In this document: piece by piece, positions 352 through 20,486 of the stretch | Numbering within the stretch: the first letter of the stretch is position 1 | How the letters are laid out: each line of letters begins with the position of its first letter | IMG/VR virus record: IMGVR_UViG_3300032216_000682 | Coordinates: 1 to 34,719 of that record | Strand: one strand, 5' to 3' | DNA from: a virus | Lineage: Duplodnaviria; Caudoviricetes | DNA length: 34,719 bases | Notes under the pieces: model-generated | The model's database searches: none | Seen by the model: the letters and a program-made list of their open reading frames with translations, nothing else | What the model was told of the DNA's origin: nothing | Position numbers and translations under genes: made by a program

Positions 352-2064
352 TTAGTTAATCACAATAAAGTTGACTCTTGTTGCTGCTGTTGGTGCAGTA
401 CTTGGATAAAGAGTAAATGAACCAGCCGCCGCAACAGCTTGGACGGATTTCATGGTTGCATCATTTGTTCCTACTGTGCAAATAATAATACTGTTTGCGG
501 TTACTAAACTATTGGTCACTACTAAAGATGCGGCTGCTGTTGCAAAGTTTACTGTACCCGCATTTTTGTTAATTGTTTGCGCGCCATTTGTACCACTAGC
601 TGTAACAGTTTTATCAAACTGCATATCGCCAGCAAAATAATTGGCAGCAGTACCGGCCATGTACAAATTATAGCGACCAGTAGCAGCAGGTATGTTTCCG
701 TAAAATGCGTAGTTGTTAGTTGCCCCTATTAAAGAAGCCTCTACTAAAAAACCATACTGATTAGTCACAGCAGAACCAGCACCTATTGTTGATTGGTTAG
801 CTGTAAAATGTGAAAGTGTTGGTAACGTAAAAGAAGCGGCAGCAGTTGAAACCGATGAAAAAAATGAGTCTGCTCTTGCGGTTACATCTGATGCAATACT
901 GCTATTTGCGATAACTTGACGGATAGTTGTATTTCCAGTTGCATTTCCACCAATTCTTAAAATTTGTCCTGCTCCCGCACTAGTACCAATGCCAACCGCG
1001 CCAGCACTATCAATACGCATACGCTCAGTAGGAGATGACGCGCCATCGGCAGTAGTGCTAAATGTTAATCTAGTTGGCATATCGTTAGTGCCGGTAGCGC
1101 CGTCTACGGCAGCCGTAATCCTAGCTCCAGCGATATAGTTTGTTCCATCATACCCACTCCATTGGATATTGCCTATAGCATCACCAGATTGAACAATAGC
1201 CCCTGCTCTATCTTTTGAAAACAAAATATAAGGCGCACTTGAATCATTTGTCTTATTTCTTATTTGGTACTGAGGGCCAAAAGCAGTGCTACCAACCATA
1301 AGCCATGCAGGTCCAACCATTGATGCGCCCGCAAATGATGTTGCGCCTTGAACAATGCTTCCTGAGGCATCAATCACAAACGGCGTACTATCAGGACTAG
1401 CACTATCCTCTACTACTAGAGCATTACCCGATCCAGTTTGTGTAATACGCAAAGCGTCAGCTGATGATGAACTTGTAATTACAGAATTGGGGGCAGTAAA
1501 CGTAGTTCCATCAAACGTTAATGCAGAAGACCCAGCAAAAGTCCCATTATTGTTATATTGAATCTGAGTATCTGATCCAGCAGGTACATTGCCACCACCG
1601 CTGTTGATAATGACTCGTAAACGATCCGTAATGTCCGGCGGTAATATCTCGCCAGCATTAACTTCACGACCATTTGATAGCGTGATGATTAAGCTATTGT
1701 CGAAGTCGATACGTATATCAGCGATTGATATACCGTCAGCGCCATCCAGACCGTTGATGCCATCGATGCCATCGCGGCCATCGCGCCCTGGCATTCCATC
1801 ATTACCGTTACGACCATTTAGGCCATCCATACCATCACGGCCATCTTGAATCCTAGCAATGCGATTCTCTAGCATTGCGTAGATATCGTCGTACTTGCCT
1901 TCCAAGTCTCCCTTCATTTTTTGAAGTGCTTGGATAACAGCCTGTGCGCTCTCACCCGCTTTTTTCTTTTGCAGCATGCGTAATTCAGAGACTGAGCTGT
2001 TTACAGAATCAAATAGCTCATCGGAAAACTGATTTGCGTTAAATACTTTTTCGATATCCATCAC
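352..2064 (-). CDS. Fibre protein with N-terminal coiled coil, collagen-like Gly-X-Y segment and beta-rich fibre body
   Basis: 570 aa; 13 consecutive Gly-X-Y triplets (aa 75-113); fibre-type motifs GSDTQIQYNNNGTFAGS and PTERMRIDSAGAVGIGT; G/A/T/S-rich. Confidence 0.8.
   Translation of the reverse strand: MMDIEKVFNANQFSDELFDSVNSSVSELRMLQKKKAGESAQAVIQALQKMKGDLEGKYDDIYAMLENRIARIQDGRDGMDGLNGRNGNDGMPGRDGRDGIDGINGLDGADGISIADIRIDFDNSLIITLSNGREVNAGEILPPDITDRLRVIINSGGGNVPAGSDTQIQYNNNGTFAGSSALTFDGTTFTAPNSVITSSSSADALRITQTGSGNALVVEDSASPDSTPFVIDASGSIVQGATSFAGASMVGPAWLMVGSTAFGPQYQIRNKTNDSSAPYILFSKDRAGAIVQSGDAIGNIQWSGYDGTNYIAGARITAAVDGATGTNDMPTRLTFSTTADGASSPTERMRIDSAGAVGIGTSAGAGQILRIGGNATGNTTIRQVIANSSIASDVTARADSFFSSVSTAAASFTLPTLSHFTANQSTIGAGSAVTNQYGFLVEASLIGATNNYAFYGNIPAATGRYNLYMAGTAANYFAGDMQFDKTVTASGTNGAQTINKNAGTVNFATAAASLVVTNSLVTANSIIICTVGTNDATMKSVQAVAAAGSFTLYPSTAPTAATRVNFIVIN
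1726..1842 (-). repeat. Collagen-like (Gly-X-Y)13 coding repeat
   Basis: GRD GMD GLN GRN GND GMP GRD GRD GID GIN GLD GAD GIS; 9-nt periodicity (ccatc/ccgtt) in the DNA. Confidence 0.9.
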
Positions 2065-8367: not shown

Positions 8368-8395
8368 GGCCCGCCGTTATAGCGGGCCTTTTTTT
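8368..8395 (+). terminator. Rho-independent terminator of the early operon
   Basis: GGCCCGC-7 nt-GCGGGCC followed by T7. Confidence 0.88.
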
Positions 8396-10702: not shown

Positions 10703-10730
10703 AGACCGCCCCGCTAGGCGGTCTTTTTTT
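10703..10730 (+). terminator. Terminator-like hairpin whose U-tract is on the strand opposite the flanking genes
   Basis: AGACCGCC-CCGCTA-GGCGGTCT then T6 on the plus strand. Confidence 0.6.
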
Positions 10731-11430
10731 ATAGTGAACAAACGCGGCAAGTAGTATTGCGTTTGTATTCTCGTAGTTTGCGGCCAGATTTAAACTCCTC
10801 GCCAAGCGATTCTAAATCAGCGGGCCAAGTATCGCGGCCTGGACTACGGAACGTATGGCCTAAATCTTTTTCTAGTTGTACACCACGTGCCCAAATAACG
10901 GGGTAATTGTTATACAAGTCGCGCCATTCGCCCAAACGCTGATACGGACAGAATGCGCAGTCGGTGCGTACTGGGATACTTACTCCACGGCTTTCAAGAT
11001 ACTTCCAGACGTCTTCCTCTTTCCAGCCCCATTCGCGCATCGGAAAACGTATTGATATGTCTTCCCCGTACAAGCCACGTCGGGCTTCTTCATCCGCACG
11101 TAAACCCACGTACAGAACTGAATCATCCGAAAGATCATCCATGTACTTAATGGTCGGCTCAATTTTTAAGACTCGCGTACACCAACGGGCAAACACGCTG
11201 GGAAGCATATTCATCTCTTTGATTGTGCCCTCAAGATCATGCTTGTAACGCACCCGCTTGATCGGTTTCCCCAGCATTTCCTCTAGTTTTTTCCAGTGGT
11301 CGTGCATTTCAGGCAGCTCATTACCTGTTTCGTTACAGATATATTCGTAATCACGTGGCTCAATCTCAGCCAAACGAAGCGCCAAAGCGGTACTATCTTT
11401 CCCGCCAGATAATCCAACAACATGGGTCAT
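10729..11430 (-). CDS. PAPS-reductase/DndC-like PP-loop protein with Fe-S-type cysteines
   Basis: SGGKDS PP-loop, ETGNE, RWCTRVLKIEP, VGLRADE, CAFCPYQ, terminal CRVC. Confidence 0.88.
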   Translation of the reverse strand: MTHVVGLSGGKDSTALALRLAEIEPRDYEYICNETGNELPEMHDHWKKLEEMLGKPIKRVRYKHDLEGTIKEMNMLPSVFARWCTRVLKIEPTIKYMDDLSDDSVLYVGLRADEEARRGLYGEDISIRFPMREWGWKEEDVWKYLESRGVSIPVRTDCAFCPYQRLGEWRDLYNNYPVIWARGVQLEKDLGHTFRSPGRDTWPADLESLGEEFKSGRKLREYKRNTTCRVCSL

Positions 11431-13376
11431 TTTCCGTACCTCGCCATAATTTCAGTTTCTGCATTCAATGGTAAACCCGCCGCCCAATCGGGCGGGGTAC
11501 ACATAACATCACGGAGTTTTGCAGCTGACAGTTCGGGTGTATTGGACTCTAGGACAATTTCATCGTGTACATGCAAGACTACATTATCCAGTTGGCGTAA
11601 AGAGTGCCGTAGCAAGTCGTTTGCGATTGCTTGCGTAATATTCTCACAGGCTAGACCCTTCCACAAGCGCGCCCTCGGCCATTCTTTTGCATCAGCTGCC
11701 GGTTTCCATGCAGCCTTTACATAACTGACACCATCGGCTTCTAGTTTAGCAAACGGATAGCACAGGATGCGGCCAGATGGCAGCGCGTACCACAAATGCT
11801 GCTTATCAAACAGGTACGTTACCCGACCGGCGGTGAATTCTCGGTTTGGATTTCGCATAGCGCGCATGTAGGCGCTCTCTAGCTTTGCCCAATACGACAC
11901 CGCCCACTGATTTGACCGACGCCAAGCGTCAACGATACGCCGCGCATCGGACTCCGGCACATGCAGACCATAAGCGCGACCCATAGCAGCGAAAGCGCCG
12001 ATGCCACCGGCAAAGCCAAGGGATAGAATAGCGACCTTGCCGATCTGGCGCTGGTCTTTGGTTATCTTATCTTCAGGTACTCGGTAGATACCGGCGGCTT
12101 CGCGGATGTAGATGTCACGGCCATCACGAAATACGTCTAGGACGTCTTCGGCTTGTTGGTCAGCTGACGCCCACGCAGTCACACGGGCTTCAACGGCTGA
12201 CCAATCAGAGACAACGAACGAATGGCCGTCTTCTGGAATTAGTGCGGGCCGGAGCATGCCTTTAAGAACATCTGTAACCCGTTTTCCAAATCTTGGGACG
12301 ATTGAGTGTCCACGTACCATAGCGTGGCGTACTCCGTCGGGGTCGTCGGCGCACTTTCGCGTGAAGTTGTGGACTTGCGCCCCATACGATGAAGCTCGTC
12401 CTGTAGCGCTTCCTCCAGCGAAGACGAAGGCCCCACGGACACGGTGATCCTCGACGTCGGCAAGCCCTGCGAGGCGGCTGAACTTCGCAACTGACGACGC
12501 CCAAAGATCGTCTGCGCATTGGATGACTTCAGCGACAGTGGCCGGAATCTCATCGGGGTTTTCCTTTGCAAAAACTAATAAGTTAGCGCGAACTGATTTA
12601 TCAATACTGTACTTCAGTTCGTCGTCTTTATACGTTTCCATCAGCTTCAACGCTTGTGGCCCAACTCTGGCCATCACCCATTGCTTCATTTTCGGGCTGC
12701 GCACTGAAGTGATTTCTTTTTCGGTGATCTCTTCGACGATACCTTCGATCTCTTCAAGCTCGATCGATGCGTAGTCGATCGCAGCACGCGCCAGAGGTAA
12801 ATCTAACTTAACACCTCGGTCGTTGATACGTTCGTTAACGTGGTAGTCGGCCAGCTCTTGATCTGATAGTGGACGCATAGCTTGCGAGACGGCACGCATA
12901 GCGCGCACGTCTTGCTCGCAATAGCGAACCATTTCAGCCATTAAGTCGGGCGAATCGTTAAACGATCCATCAGGGCGAGGGATGGAAAGTGCACGGATAA
13001 GCTGGCTTCCTCGGTGGTCTTTTCGCATGTTACTGCTGATGGCTCGTCCGACGTCTTCGAGGCTTCCAGGTAAGCAGTTAGCACGCGCTTGCGTAGCGGT
13101 GCAGTAGAACTGCTCGAGTTCAAAGTTAATTTGCAGTACGTACCAGAAAACAAGGCGCTCAAAAGCGGCATTGTGCGCGTGTATGCGCCCTCGGTGGTTC
13201 CGCACTGCATGTGGGAATTGTTGGTCTGGAGTCCAGGTGAGAACTTCACCATCATCAAAGGCGTAGGACATACAAAGTACATCTGTTGAGGCATCTTGTG
13301 CATAGTTATAAACTCCACGGGAGGATAGGTCGCAGCGACTGCGAGTCTCGAAATCAAGCCAAAGTATCAGCCCCAT
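11427..13376 (-). CDS. DNA polymerase family A with 3'-5' exonuclease (APSE-like phage type)
   Basis: ExoI LDFET, ExoII AHNAAFE, ExoIII YCEQD; motif A SDWSAVEAR, motif B RQIGKVAILSLGF, motif C HVHDEIV. Confidence 0.95.
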   Translation of the reverse strand: MGLILWLDFETRSRCDLSSRGVYNYAQDASTDVLCMSYAFDDGEVLTWTPDQQFPHAVRNHRGRIHAHNAAFERLVFWYVLQINFELEQFYCTATQARANCLPGSLEDVGRAISSNMRKDHRGSQLIRALSIPRPDGSFNDSPDLMAEMVRYCEQDVRAMRAVSQAMRPLSDQELADYHVNERINDRGVKLDLPLARAAIDYASIELEEIEGIVEEITEKEITSVRSPKMKQWVMARVGPQALKLMETYKDDELKYSIDKSVRANLLVFAKENPDEIPATVAEVIQCADDLWASSVAKFSRLAGLADVEDHRVRGAFVFAGGSATGRASSYGAQVHNFTRKCADDPDGVRHAMVRGHSIVPRFGKRVTDVLKGMLRPALIPEDGHSFVVSDWSAVEARVTAWASADQQAEDVLDVFRDGRDIYIREAAGIYRVPEDKITKDQRQIGKVAILSLGFAGGIGAFAAMGRAYGLHVPESDARRIVDAWRRSNQWAVSYWAKLESAYMRAMRNPNREFTAGRVTYLFDKQHLWYALPSGRILCYPFAKLEADGVSYVKAAWKPAADAKEWPRARLWKGLACENITQAIANDLLRHSLRQLDNVVLHVHDEIVLESNTPELSAAKLRDVMCTPPDWAAGLPLNAETEIMARYGK

Positions 13377-13957
13377 TGTGCCGCCATCGCGTCAGCAATG
13401 CCCTGATACGTCTCACTACGTATTTTCCAACGGTCTGCCGATGGCCCTAGCTTATTCTGGCCAGAATCCGTCTGATTACCCCACCGCTTTTTACCGTCAA
13501 TAATACGAGGTGCAATCATTTCTGTAGAAATTAACGGGGGTAAATCTTTCAGCCAAAGGCAAGTCTTTTTACTTGCGTTATGACCAAACATGTACGGCGT
13601 AATGATCTGGTCAGGCTTTCTAATGCGCGAACTAATAACGCTAATTGGATTTTCTAACGCGATACGCTTGATAGGCGCGTCCAATAGCAGACGCACAAAA
13701 TTAAGCGCATCTTCAGTCAGTTGCGGGTCACGCAAGCCTCGCGTAGTCCAGTGCATACCTGAAACGGACAAATATGTACATGGTGGGTGGGCGACCATTA
13801 AATCCCATCCATCGTTAATAATATCGGTAACGTCGCCCTGATAATGCGGCCCCGCTACGTCTGTAGGTAATAGATCACAACTCATAGCGTCATGCCCTGC
13901 GCGTATAAAAGCGTCACGGACACGGCCTGAGTATTCGCAAGCAATAAGTATTTTCAT
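13367..13957 (-). CDS. Short phage C5-cytosine DNA methyltransferase-like protein
   Basis: Motif I variant IACEYSG, SCD, QGDV, catalytic HPPC, ENP; only 196 aa. Confidence 0.8.
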   Translation of the reverse strand: MKILIACEYSGRVRDAFIRAGHDAMSCDLLPTDVAGPHYQGDVTDIINDGWDLMVAHPPCTYLSVSGMHWTTRGLRDPQLTEDALNFVRLLLDAPIKRIALENPISVISSRIRKPDQIITPYMFGHNASKKTCLWLKDLPPLISTEMIAPRIIDGKKRWGNQTDSGQNKLGPSADRWKIRSETYQGIADAMAAQWG

Positions 13958-13967
13958 AGGGATAGGT

Positions 13968-14032
13968 GGGGTACTTGCTTCGTCTGTAAGCGCCGTGCAT
14001 CCGCACTCGGTTCACAGCATCCGCTTTCCCCC
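13968..14032 (-). ncRNA. Putative structured RNA element with AGUA/GAA loop-E (sarcin-ricin-like) motif
   Basis: Minus strand GGGG-GAA-AGC-GGAUG-CUGUGA...GUGC-GGAU-GCAC...UUACAG-ACGAA-GC-AAGUA-CCCC; nested stems fill the intergenic gap. Confidence 0.6.
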
Positions 14033-14039
14033 GTTTTAC

Positions 14040-14660
14040 TTAGCTACGACGACGACGTGCTGGCGCTGCATCCTCGCCAGACTGTGACTCACCGGCTGCA
14101 CCTTCCATCGAAACCCACTCCACAACATCAAATTCAGGCGTGTAAATCTTGCCGTATGACTTGTGGTTGTAGAACGATTTCTTCAGCTGAACTACAGGCA
14201 CTGGGTTAGTTTGATCTAGCTCAACTTGCGCAGTAATACGTGCGGCCAATGCTGCAACGCCACGTAGGCCACCTTGGCTAGTTGTTGTGTAACGCGCTTC
14301 CAGACCTTTGTCTTTACCAGACACGCAACGAAGCGCAAAGCCTAATTGCTTTTCCCAACCCTTTTTGCAGCCATTTGGTGCTGGCTCCAGTTCAGGCAGC
14401 GGTTGCGCTATAGGCACCAACTTTTCAGCCAATACTTCACGATCACCCCAAGCGATAAAGCCGTGGACGAACGAGAACGGATTAATAGCCCATGTTGACC
14501 CAACTTCGGCTTCAGTTTGATCTGCACCAAATACCCAATTACCACCTTTGTCCATCTTTAGAATGGCAAAACCCGTAGGGGCAACTTCAGTCTCAAGGGT
14601 ACGTAATGCTGTGGTCAACGACGCTACGTTTGGAAGATTTGCTACTGCGAATGTACTCAT
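14040..14660 (-). CDS. Putative ssDNA-binding protein
   Basis: Sits between the DUF2800-like nuclease and Pol A; aromatic beta-rich (GNWVFG, FVHGFIAW, YGKIYTP); assigned by synteny. Confidence 0.6.
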   Translation of the reverse strand: MSTFAVANLPNVASLTTALRTLETEVAPTGFAILKMDKGGNWVFGADQTEAEVGSTWAINPFSFVHGFIAWGDREVLAEKLVPIAQPLPELEPAPNGCKKGWEKQLGFALRCVSGKDKGLEARYTTTSQGGLRGVAALAARITAQVELDQTNPVPVVQLKKSFYNHKSYGKIYTPEFDVVEWVSMEGAAGESQSGEDAAPARRRRS

Positions 14661-14679
14661 GTAAGTTTCCTTTAGTGGA

Positions 14680-15807
14680 CTAGATTTTAGAAAGGGCCGC
14701 AGCTAACTGCTTCCCGATTTGCAACACCGCTGGCCTCGAATCAGATTCCGGTGCCAACGTACTACCCGACGAAACCGATACGACTAATTTCGACGGTAAT
14801 TCCATACTATGTTTCTTTAAAACTTTTTCTAGCTGTGCGGGCGACTTTAATTTACGGTCATAAATAGCATCGACGTCGGTGAACATAAGGTTATACCAAT
14901 TATGAACTTCATTTTCATCAACCCATTGGCGCGTACCACGCTTGGCTACCAGTTTAAATCCTGGCACAGGTTGACCATTCTCAAGCATCTGCATTGCTAA
15001 CGCACGCAAGTCTTTGATGTAGTCTTCAATCATATCGGCTTGCGATAACTGCATAGCTATTTGATCGATCGGCAACGCTTGTAATTTGTTCTGCAATACG
15101 CGCTCGACTTGGCCTGTCATCTTAGGGCAAATTGGTTTAGCTGCGCACCACCGGCAATGGTCACCCGTATTAAATGTAGCCGCTTCGCTTTGACTAGCAT
15201 GTACCGCACGGCGCAACTCTTGCTCAAACAATGCAACCCGTTCTGGTGTTGTTACCCATCGACGAATTTCAGGTGGCTGCACGATGATACATTCAATTTG
15301 ATGAGCACCATCAAACACCCACTTAGCCGCTTCAGTTCGCATTGCGGCTGCCGCGTAGAATAGCAGTTGGTAATTCTCTTCAGCATCTACAAATACGCCG
15401 TCGCCAAACTTCCAATCTAAAACAATAGCGCGATTGCCAATGCGGCCAAGTAAGTCAGTGCTGCCGAACACGCCAGGTAGAAAATCGCCAAATCCCACTC
15501 TCGTTTCAACCATGTAATCCATTGAACCGTCGTGGTTGATTTCTTTAAGCGCCTCGAGCGCAAAGTTAAGTTTCTCATCAATTAACTCCTGAGTAAGTGT
15601 TTGCTCTTTATATTTCGTGCCAAGATATTTTTCAGGGGCTTCGTTAAATTCAAGCATATCAGCGATTACGTTATGCAGTAGCGTACCGCGATCGGCATGT
15701 TCGTTTGGGATGTCTTTTGATGGTATCTGTTGGACTAACTTAACAGAGGCTGGGCATGCTATGACGCGCTTGGCAGTGCTGCCACCTACGATGTTGGAAT
15801 GTTGCAC
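14680..15807 (-). CDS. DUF2800 / Cas4-like PD-(D/E)xK nuclease
   Basis: CPAS, RGTLLH, GSTD...VLDWKFG, QLLFYA, HCRWC...CP. Confidence 0.9.
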   Translation of the reverse strand: MQHSNIVGGSTAKRVIACPASVKLVQQIPSKDIPNEHADRGTLLHNVIADMLEFNEAPEKYLGTKYKEQTLTQELIDEKLNFALEALKEINHDGSMDYMVETRVGFGDFLPGVFGSTDLLGRIGNRAIVLDWKFGDGVFVDAEENYQLLFYAAAAMRTEAAKWVFDGAHQIECIIVQPPEIRRWVTTPERVALFEQELRRAVHASQSEAATFNTGDHCRWCAAKPICPKMTGQVERVLQNKLQALPIDQIAMQLSQADMIEDYIKDLRALAMQMLENGQPVPGFKLVAKRGTRQWVDENEVHNWYNLMFTDVDAIYDRKLKSPAQLEKVLKKHSMELPSKLVVSVSSGSTLAPESDSRPAVLQIGKQLAAALSKI

Positions 15808-19523: not shown

Positions 19524-20486
19524 TTACACTTTAAAGACGTTTCCACGGAAATAAATAATGCCTTCTTCCTCATCTAACACTTCGCATAATTCCGGCGGCA
19601 ACAGCTTGCCATTATAGAATGTAAGCACGGCATAGCCTGAGCGGTGGTTCTTTGGGTTATCTTCCGAGTAGCTAAACTGTTGGCCGTTAACGTCTGCCAG
19701 GCTGCCGGTATCGACGCCATAGCGCGTGCCGGTATAGTCAGTCCACGGAGTTACTTTAAGGCTATGCAAGTGCCCTGTAACTATTGACGTGCCCGACTTA
19801 AGGGTATTGTTGTAGATAGCATGTACACCATTATGATAACGATGCTTAATCATGCAACTTTTATTTACCATAACCGATGTTGAAAATTTCCAACGTGGGA
19901 AATGATCGGTTAAGTTCATACCGACTATGCCCTTAAAGCCATCGCCTACCTGAGCGGCCAGACGAGCATTAAAGCGTTGATCGTGATTACCCCACGTCCA
20001 ATGTAACTTCGAGTTAAGCGATGCCGCCTCGATCTCGGATAGACGCTCCTGACACGCTTCAAGCTCCTGCTTAACTGACGGTGTAGCTTCCCACATGCCA
20101 CCAGGTGGATGGCGGCTAATTGATGCGCCATCGAATACGTCGCCGTTCATTACAATCGCTTTAGGCTTTAGCTCTTTCGCAAACAATACAAACGCTCGAT
20201 GCGCCGTTGATACAATGCCAGGCCAGTAGTGACAATCACTAGCGACCATGATTGTCCCGCTATCAAGCTCAAAATTAACGCGAACACCGTTTTCAGGTAT
20301 AGATATTTTAAAATCAGGACTGCGTGGGCTTGCTGCGTTTAGAATGATGCTGTGATTTTGTTCTAACTTGCGACGACGTGCATTTATGCCCCGCACCGAT
20401 ATCCCTGTTTCATTAGCCATATCGGTCACAGATTGCAATCGACGCCAAGTCGAAATAAACTCCTCATCCGATATTTTAGTGGCCAT
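19524..20486 (-). CDS. Calcineurin-like metallophosphoesterase with a putative N-terminal HTH
   Basis: SDCH, NGDVFD, GNHD, KHRYH, GHLH motifs. Confidence 0.9.
   Translation of the reverse strand: MATKISDEEFISTWRRLQSVTDMANETGISVRGINARRRKLEQNHSIILNAASPRSPDFKISIPENGVRVNFELDSGTIMVASDCHYWPGIVSTAHRAFVLFAKELKPKAIVMNGDVFDGASISRHPPGGMWEATPSVKQELEACQERLSEIEAASLNSKLHWTWGNHDQRFNARLAAQVGDGFKGIVGMNLTDHFPRWKFSTSVMVNKSCMIKHRYHNGVHAIYNNTLKSGTSIVTGHLHSLKVTPWTDYTGTRYGVDTGSLADVNGQQFSYSEDNPKNHRSGYAVLTFYNGKLLPPELCEVLDEEEGIIYFRGNVFKV

What the first reader, a model, noticed from the sequence alone, without database searches (positions are those of the whole stretch)
10729..13957. Methyltransferase - Pol A - PP-loop/Fe-S cassette: candidate DNA-modification system
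Seen: the polymerase is flanked by two overlapping genes, a minimal C5-MTase-like protein (10-nt overlap) and a PAPS-reductase/DndC-like protein (ATGA overlap) with an intact PP-loop and Cys motifs (RWC, CAFC, CRVC). No sulfate-assimilation genes and no dndA/B/D/E or ssp partners are present. Established: DndC and SspD belong to this family and act in DNA phosphorothioation, and PP-loop enzymes adenylate substrates for thiolation or amidation. Inference: rather than a sulfur-metabolism gene, this may be a stand-alone, replication-coupled DNA or nucleotide modifier, possibly using a host cysteine desulfurase.
Basis: partly seen in the sequence, partly recalled or inferred. Interest (0 to 1): 0.78.

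Follow-up and report, generated by a model that had tools for sequence, protein, structure and literature searches.

The report
Lone phage sister of SspD
This complete phage genome carries, slotted in at the stop codon of its DNA polymerase gene, a lone relative of SspD, the bacterial enzyme that puts sulfur into the DNA backbone; it likely marks the phage's own DNA with help from host proteins to escape sulfur-sensing defences, while the methyltransferase gene on the polymerase's other side is a separate optional insert.

Summary
Observation confirmed; the 'cassette' mostly not. The window is a whole 34.7-kb phage. The 233-aa PP-loop protein is SspD-like, not CysH or DndC. It scores PADLOC SspD E 2e-48, its nearest cellular kin (33-42%) lie in ssp operons, and its phage clade is sister to operonic SspD. 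Its only PDB sequence match is PptA (21FY), an entry that also holds E. coli IscS. Both flanking genes are optional. A phage with a 93%-identical polymerase lacks both, with clean junctions at the polymerase start and stop. Only 2 of 24 near-complete relatives carry any PAPS-like gene. The same slots hold other methylases, DpdA and four other PAPS-like subfamilies, including a PptA orthologue. The polymerase is ordinary. Best reading: a counter-defence phosphorothioate writer that borrows host IscS and probably SspB/C (about 0.5; no activity shown). Phage PAPS-like anti-phosphorothioate genes are published (Piel 2022; Wang 2026, title only seen), and this scan noted orphan phage SspD-like genes on two other genomes. 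What differs: an intact PP-loop (PptA's is degenerate) and a basic tail where SspD's is acidic.

The parts
10729..11430 (-). SspD-like PP-loop protein, 233 aa: PP-loop SGGKDS 8-13, predicted [4Fe-4S] ligands C84/C158/C161, RADE 111-114, C-terminal CxxC 228-231 after a basic tail
11427..13376 (-). Family A DNA polymerase, 649 aa, core gene with ordinary motifs; its two ends are the insertion points
13367..13957 (-). Short C5-cytosine methyltransferase-like protein (phrog_757), 196 aa; PPC 58-60 and EN 102-103 invariant in 49 homologues; a separate optional gene
13946..13975 (-). Upstream junction: leader and ATGAAAATACTT that start the polymerase in relative L052 start the methyltransferase here; ATACTT recurs at the polymerase start
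10703..10731 (+). Downstream junction: stop codon plus G+C hairpin with a T-run (terminator-like on the + strand) that follow the polymerase directly in L052
8402..10681 (-). Primase-helicase, core neighbour downstream
14040..15807 (-). 206-aa protein (probable single-strand binding protein, label from recalled gene order) and DUF2800 exonuclease, core neighbours upstream

Best explanation
The 233-aa protein is a stand-alone phage sister of SspD that likely writes phosphorothioate marks on the phage's own DNA by borrowing the host's cysteine desulfurase and probably the host's SspB/SspC, and so would protect the phage from sulfur-sensing restriction. Shown here: family placement, intact motifs, absence of ssp partners from the whole genome, optional status, and insertion at the polymerase stop. 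Inferred steps: (1) C84, C158 and C161 bind a [4Fe-4S] cluster with a free iron; (2) host IscS/SspA loads sulfur, perhaps through the C-terminal CxxC; (3) the PP-loop uses ATP to adenylate the DNA phosphate and sulfur displaces AMP; (4) site choice and DNA handling come from host SspB/C; (5) the site after the polymerase gives expression at replication time, which is transcriptional timing rather than a physical or chemical link to the polymerase. The methyltransferase is a second, independently inserted anti-restriction gene.
For: PADLOC SspD 163 bits against DndC 29. Of 80 best genome loci, 65 have SspC, 54 SspB and 30 SspA nearby. The phage clade (SH-aLRT 99) is sister to operonic SspD (97), join 86. 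The RWC, RxDE, CxxC and terminal CxxC motifs are shared by 60-65 of 65 SspD and 44-46 of 46 viral homologues. DndC's three cluster cysteines have the same layout (PMC12193691 passages). The only PDB sequence hit is PptA 21FY (E 7e-5), and the same entry holds E. coli IscS. A PptA orthologue (E 8e-65) fills the same slot in related phage L140. The slot's other occupants are DNA modifiers or HNH nucleases. One homologue is fused to a D12 adenine methyltransferase, and two carry an intein inside the CxxC. A vibriophage PAPS-Dam fusion plus one small gene conferred escape from Dnd (Piel preprint passages). IscS replaces SspA in E. coli Ssp (PMC13251355 passages). The genome avoids many palindromes (CCSGG 0 vs about 20 expected, ATGCAT 0 vs 14.7), a sign of restriction pressure.
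Against: No activity or modified DNA is shown. PptA is only a distant relative (22% in profile alignment, degenerate PP-loop), so its biology may not carry over, and I saw only the title of the paper that probably describes it. The host is unknown (best named polymerase match 56%), so whether it has Ssp is unknown. The phage clade has lost SspD's acidic tail (median charge +3 vs -6) and is about 35 aa shorter, which may break docking to SspB/C. CCA, the Ssp target, is not clearly enriched in carriers (p 0.026, rank 17 of 64). The join of the phage clade with SspD has only 86 support in a quick tree with long outgroup branches.
Confidence: 0.5

Rival explanations
1. Self-sufficient phosphorothioate writer: it needs only host IscS and ATP, binds DNA through its basic tail, and acts on newly replicated DNA, like single-gene TdpC. 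This is closest to the first reader's idea.
For: The genome has no ssp partners. The PP-loop is intact, and the tail is basic in 74 of 74 close homologues while acidic in SspD. tdpC alone suffices for PT (one sentence in PMC12914056). 36 of 44 close homologues abut the polymerase.
Against: It has no extra DNA-binding domain in 233 aa. PT in Dnd, Ssp and BREX-4 needs an NTPase partner (PMC12914056 passages). No polymerase co-adaptation was found. Distant homologues are mostly not beside PolA.
Confidence: 0.17
2. Decoy or inhibitor: it ties up host IscS or SspB/C so that host PT falls and PT-activated effectors such as SspE are not licensed.
For: SspE is switched on by PT-DNA (PMC13251355 passages). 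The tail charge is altered. The PptA type has a degenerate PP-loop.
Against: All catalytic motifs are kept across the clade, and inteins sit in the CxxC, both of which point to needed catalysis.
Confidence: 0.13
3. Thiolase or amidase of a base or free nucleotide, whose product the polymerase incorporates.
For: The fold also matches the NcsA/TtuA/LarE thiolases (Z 12.6-13.1). It sits next to PolA, and DpdA occurs in the same slot.
Against: Sequence kinship is to SspD, not to those enzymes. The polymerase motifs are the same with and without the gene. No nucleotide-metabolism genes were seen in the genome scans.
Confidence: 0.1
4. Ordinary CysH-like (P)APS reductase acting as an auxiliary metabolic gene.
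For: The Pfam and PHROG names; the best structural matches are CysH/APS reductases (Z 14-16).
Against: It has no ECGLH tail and no CC pair. E. coli CysH has none of the RWC/CxxC/RxDE motifs. NCBIfam PRK02090 gives E 0.16 and no cysH/APS-reductase model hits at E<=1. The fold library ends in April 2026 and listed no SspD/PptA chain.
Confidence: 0.04

Closest known systems
SspD of SspABCD-SspE single-strand DNA phosphorothioation systems
   Same: 33-42% identity; same PP-loop, RWC, RxDE, CxxC and terminal CxxC; sister clade
   Different: No sspA/B/C in the genome; about 35 aa shorter; basic instead of acidic tail; phage accessory gene
PptA (PDB 21FY, entry also holding E. coli IscS); probably the subject of Wang et al. 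2026 Nat Microbiol 10.1038/s41564-026-02387-3 (title only seen; the link is my inference)
   Same: Homologous over about 190 residues with the three cluster cysteines aligned; lone PAPS-like protein; an orthologue fills the same slot in a related phage
   Different: About 22% identity and a separate long branch; PptA has SCGAPS in place of SGGKDS
Vibriophage 44E38.1 p0018 PAPS-Dam fusion, anti-Dnd (Piel et al., bioRxiv 10.1101/2021.05.05.442762)
   Same: Phage PAPS-domain gene in a swappable anti-defence slot beside methylases
   Different: Fused to Dam; mechanism not shown in the passages read; sequence not compared here
DndC and TdpC
   Same: PP-loop plus three-cysteine cluster site
   Different: DndC is about 540 aa with an extra cysteine dyad; TIGR03183 gives 24 bits against a 290 cut-off. 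TdpC was not compared
CysH PAPS/APS reductases
   Same: Fold
   Different: No ECGLH, no CC pair
phrog_757 short phage C5-methyltransferase-like proteins
   Same: Full-length member; relatives in 561 of 50,697 phage records
   Different: None found; target unknown

Membership tests
SspD (protein family) | Sequence match to the SspD profile above other PT enzymes | tested here: met
   163 bits, E 2.4e-48, 3-211 on 2-218/277; a true SspD scores 465
SspD (protein family) | PP-loop, RWC, RxDE, CxxC, terminal CxxC | tested here: met
   the PP-loop tally in fetched loci is circular because that motif was the search pattern
SspD (protein family) | Nested within the operonic SspD clade | tested here: not met
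   Sister clade, not nested; quick tree, 63 rows
SspABCD system | sspB and sspC encoded alongside | tested here: not met
   None in the whole genome; among non-cellular loci only 6 (L349-L359) have them
SspABCD system | PT at CCA on one strand | not testable with these tools
   Needs LC-MS or PT-seq; the k-mer proxy was inconclusive
PptA | Orthology to 21FY chain C | tested here: not met
   E 7e-5 against 8e-65 for a true orthologue
PptA | Binds IscS | not testable with these tools
   Needs a pull-down or a structure
DndC | Full-length DndC profile, with dndD/E neighbours | tested here: not met
   24.4 bits against cut-off 290.4; no such neighbours in the genome scans
CysH (PAPS/APS reductase) | C-terminal ECGLH catalytic cysteine; CC...CxxC in APS reductases (motifs recalled; ECGLH seen in E. 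coli CysH) | tested here: not met
CysH (PAPS/APS reductase) | PP-loop/PAPS reductase fold | tested here: met
   Z 15.9, rmsd 3.2, 158 aligned to 7rge
TdpC | Sequence family and single-gene PT synthesis | not tested
   No TdpC sequence or profile turned up in the calls
C5-cytosine DNA methyltransferase (196-aa ORF) | Fold plus catalytic PC and EN motifs | tested here: met
C5-cytosine DNA methyltransferase (196-aa ORF) | Target-recognition domain and demonstrated methylation | tested here: inconclusive
   188 aligned residues span HhaI 12-319, so about 120 residues are missing; no Pfam hit
DpoZ-like modified-base polymerase | Profile match or altered motifs | tested here: not met
   16 bits against cut-off 500; motifs shared with non-carriers

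The most novel reading that the evidence does not exclude
This phage clade, sister to SspD, has swapped SspD's acidic tail for a basic one and become a 233-aa single-protein DNA phosphorothioate writer. It would need only host IscS and ATP, and the several PAPS-like subfamilies that trade places beside the polymerase (two in tandem in some phages) would be writers of different specificity. Virion DNA with a phage-written sulfur backbone would then be widespread, and much phage 'cysH' would be misread.
Probability: 0.17. Interest if true: 0.85.

Novelty: new variant of a known kind. Interest (0 to 1): 0.5.

Why it matters
Phage genes named 'PAPS reductase' are filed as auxiliary metabolic genes (the PHROG category). 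Here motifs, phylogeny and gene company point to DNA modification and counter-defence instead. A small, catalytically intact, partner-free SspD sister gives a direct test of an open mechanistic question: what SspD can do without SspB/C. If it works alone it would also be a minimal enzyme for writing phosphorothioates into DNA.

Tried and rejected
(1) Fixed three-gene cassette: rejected. (2) Polymerase adaptation: the best column, S393 (94% vs 41%), differed in only about 3 of 13 independent pairs, p 0.25. (3) CCA or GAAC bias in carriers: CCA p 0.0008 on whole loci fell to 0.026, rank 17 of 64, on shared genes; the lineages are not independent, so this was not used. (4) Predicted complex with E. 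coli IscS gave no verdict, score 0.00. (5) The fold searches listed no SspD, DndC, TdpC or PptA chain; the library ends in April 2026. (6) Host: not identified. (7) Wang 2026 is not held under its DOI or PubMed id. Searches for PptA, or for a phage SspD with PT, found no description of this clade; the library lacks most subscription papers, and the Wang paper and its supplements may already cover this clade. (8) The search for longer forms found 3 of 1330 candidates: two intein-bearing and one unexplained 436-aa form. Rows dropped: L143 (internal stop) from the methyltransferase alignment; records under 20 kb (38 of 80 and 28 of 80 used); from the polymerase tree, loci under 55% identity or 560 aligned residues, and exact duplicates.
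Full report
Setting. The window is a complete 34,719-bp phage genome with direct terminal repeats. It has portal, terminase, capsid and lysozyme genes, and a replication block of DUF2800 exonuclease, a 206-aa protein, family A polymerase and primase-helicase. The host is unknown; the best named polymerase match is 56%.

What the 233-aa protein is. Pfam and PHROG call it PAPS reductase, but PADLOC scores it 163 bits as SspD against 29 as DndC. NCBIfam gives DndC 24 bits (cut-off 290) and CysH PRK02090 E 0.16. A profile scan of species genomes returned 80 best loci from a partial scan (5 of 64 parts). Of these, 65 have SspC, 54 SspB and 30 SspA within 7 kb, and the SspC-linked proteins are 33-42% identical to ours. 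In a quick tree of 63 proteins the phage homologues form one clade (SH-aLRT 99), sister to operonic SspD (97), join 86; the other phage PAPS-like types and E. coli CysH are long outer branches. E. coli CysH has ECGLH and lacks the RWC, RxDE and CxxC motifs, while our protein, 44-46 of 46 viral homologues and 60-65 of 65 SspD have them and lack ECGLH and CC. The model (pLDDT 88.5) has the PP-loop fold of CysH and of the thiolases NcsA, TtuA and LarE, which does not decide function. Three cysteines in this layout bind a [4Fe-4S] cluster in DndC (PMC12193691 and PMC10853773, passages); that ours do is inference. The phage clade differs from SspD in being about 35 aa shorter, with a basic 20-residue stretch before the last CxxC (median +3 in 74 close homologues and +1 in 43 distant ones, against -6 in 60 SspD). 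The family is large (3658 proteins at E<=0.001) and under purifying selection. One member is fused to a D12 adenine methyltransferase, and two have an intein inserted between the CxxC cysteines.

Known relatives. The only PDB sequence hit is 21FY chain C, PptA (E 7e-5), and E. coli IscS is listed in the same entry. A reference list gave Wang et al. [quoted passage not shown] The paper is not held, so I saw its title only, and tying it to 21FY is my inference. PptA is a different subfamily, with 22% identity in a profile alignment to its orthologue and SCGA in place of SGGK. In the Piel preprint (passages), moving a PAPS-Dam fusion and one unknown gene into a vibriophage gave escape from Dnd. 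PMC13551039 and PMC11437467 (passages) already suggest that phage PAPS reductases modify DNA. PMC12914056 (passages) says PT needs a PAPS-domain protein plus an NTPase, except for tdpC. PMC13251355 (passages) says IscS stands in for SspA and that PT activates SspE. PMC12707154, PMC12839542 and PMC8569181 were read in passages for background.

Is it a cassette? Among 44 loci with close homologues (69-100%, many near-copies), 30 have the gene directly after the polymerase, 6 directly before, 3 one gene away, 3 near a distant polymerase and 2 with none in view. Seen from the polymerase's side it is rare: 3 of 80 loci by tblastn, plus one of another subfamily, and 2 of 24 near-complete genomes by profile. 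Presence needs 13-17 changes on a 110-protein polymerase tree, and no polymerase residue tracks it. Of 44 more distant viral homologues (40-65%), 5 have a PolA-like gene within 7 kb (only this window's genes were used as probes). L052, with a 93%-identical polymerase, lacks both genes. Its polymerase starts with the same leader and ATGAAAATACTT that start the methyltransferase here, and its stop codon and hairpin are those that follow the PAPS-like gene here. So the overlaps are the marks of precise insertion (or precise loss) at the polymerase's two ends. The methyltransferase is found in 4 of 44 carriers and 2 of 11 near-complete ones, against 6 of 77 non-carrier loci (p 1.0). Against my reading, PAPS-like genes of any subfamily occur in 5 of 12 near-complete methyltransferase carriers against 1 of 22 methyltransferase-free polymerase relatives (p 0.014). 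The sets are small, related and not matched by phage type, and shared pressure from heavily defended hosts would explain this, but a functional pairing is not excluded.

What else uses the slots. In related phages they hold full-size C5 methyltransferases (6 loci), Dam (L099), an N4/N6 methylase (L124), DpdA (L174), a DruA-like protein (L067), HNH nucleases, and four further PAPS-like subfamilies. One of these is a PptA orthologue (L140, E 8e-65), and in L004 and L040-L042 two subfamilies lie in tandem. The genome also avoids many palindromes. The slots look like a shelf for swappable DNA-protection genes, expressed with the replication operon.

The 196-aa protein. It is a full member of phrog_757, with relatives in 561 phage records. 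PPC and EN are invariant in 49 homologues, and the model matches DNMT3 and M.HhaI over its whole length while lacking about 120 residues of the target-recognition region. It is likely an active short-specificity C5 methyltransferase; this is inference.

Verdict. The best reading, at about 0.5, is a phage SspD sister that writes phosphorothioates on phage DNA with host IscS and probably SspB/C, as counter-defence. Rivals are a self-sufficient writer (0.17), a decoy (0.13), a base or nucleotide thiolase (0.10) and CysH (0.04). It works like SspD and PptA but is not a member of an Ssp system and not a PptA orthologue. The scan's earlier notes on two other genomes reached the same reading; they are not independent evidence. 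It is a new variant of a known kind, interest 0.5.

Noticed in passing
window 1-34719: Strong avoidance of restriction-like sites: CCSGG 0 (about 20 expected), ATGCAT 0 (14.7), TGATCA 0 (11.5), CTGCAG 0 (10.1), GGWCC 4 (about 20), while CCWGG (40) is normal.
   Followed up: partly
L140 3114-3881 (-): PptA orthologue between the 206-aa gene and the polymerase of a related phage; its family hits 61 named phage records, including vibrio-, pseudoalteromonas- and mycobacteriophages.
   Followed up: partly
L004 2232-3769; L040 1202-2739 (also L041, L042): Two different PAPS-like subfamilies in tandem after the polymerase, suggesting non-redundant roles.
   Followed up: no
P0135, P0147 (P0272 has the same domains): LAGLIDADG intein inserted inside the CxxC motif of homologues.
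   Followed up: partly
P0173: Fusion of a D12-class adenine methyltransferase to a member of this family.
   Followed up: no
L174 2885-3604 (-); L067 5387-5998 (+): DpdA (Pfam E 5e-43) and a stand-alone DruA-like protein (E 5e-20) in the same slot before the polymerase.
   Followed up: no
window 19524-20486 (-): Calcineurin-like metallophosphoesterase next to the lysozyme; in L002 and L020 its homologue lies after the primase, so it is another mobile accessory gene.
   Followed up: no
window 8368-8388 and 10703-10724 (+): Two strong terminator-like hairpins on the + strand bracket the - strand primase gene.
   Followed up: no
L349, L350, L351, L353, L355, L359: Records of the viral collection that carry sspB/sspC (two also sspA) beside an SspD-like gene: phage-borne Ssp operons or host DNA in the records.
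   Followed up: no
window 352-2064 (-): Tail-fibre-like protein with collagen repeats.
   Followed up: no
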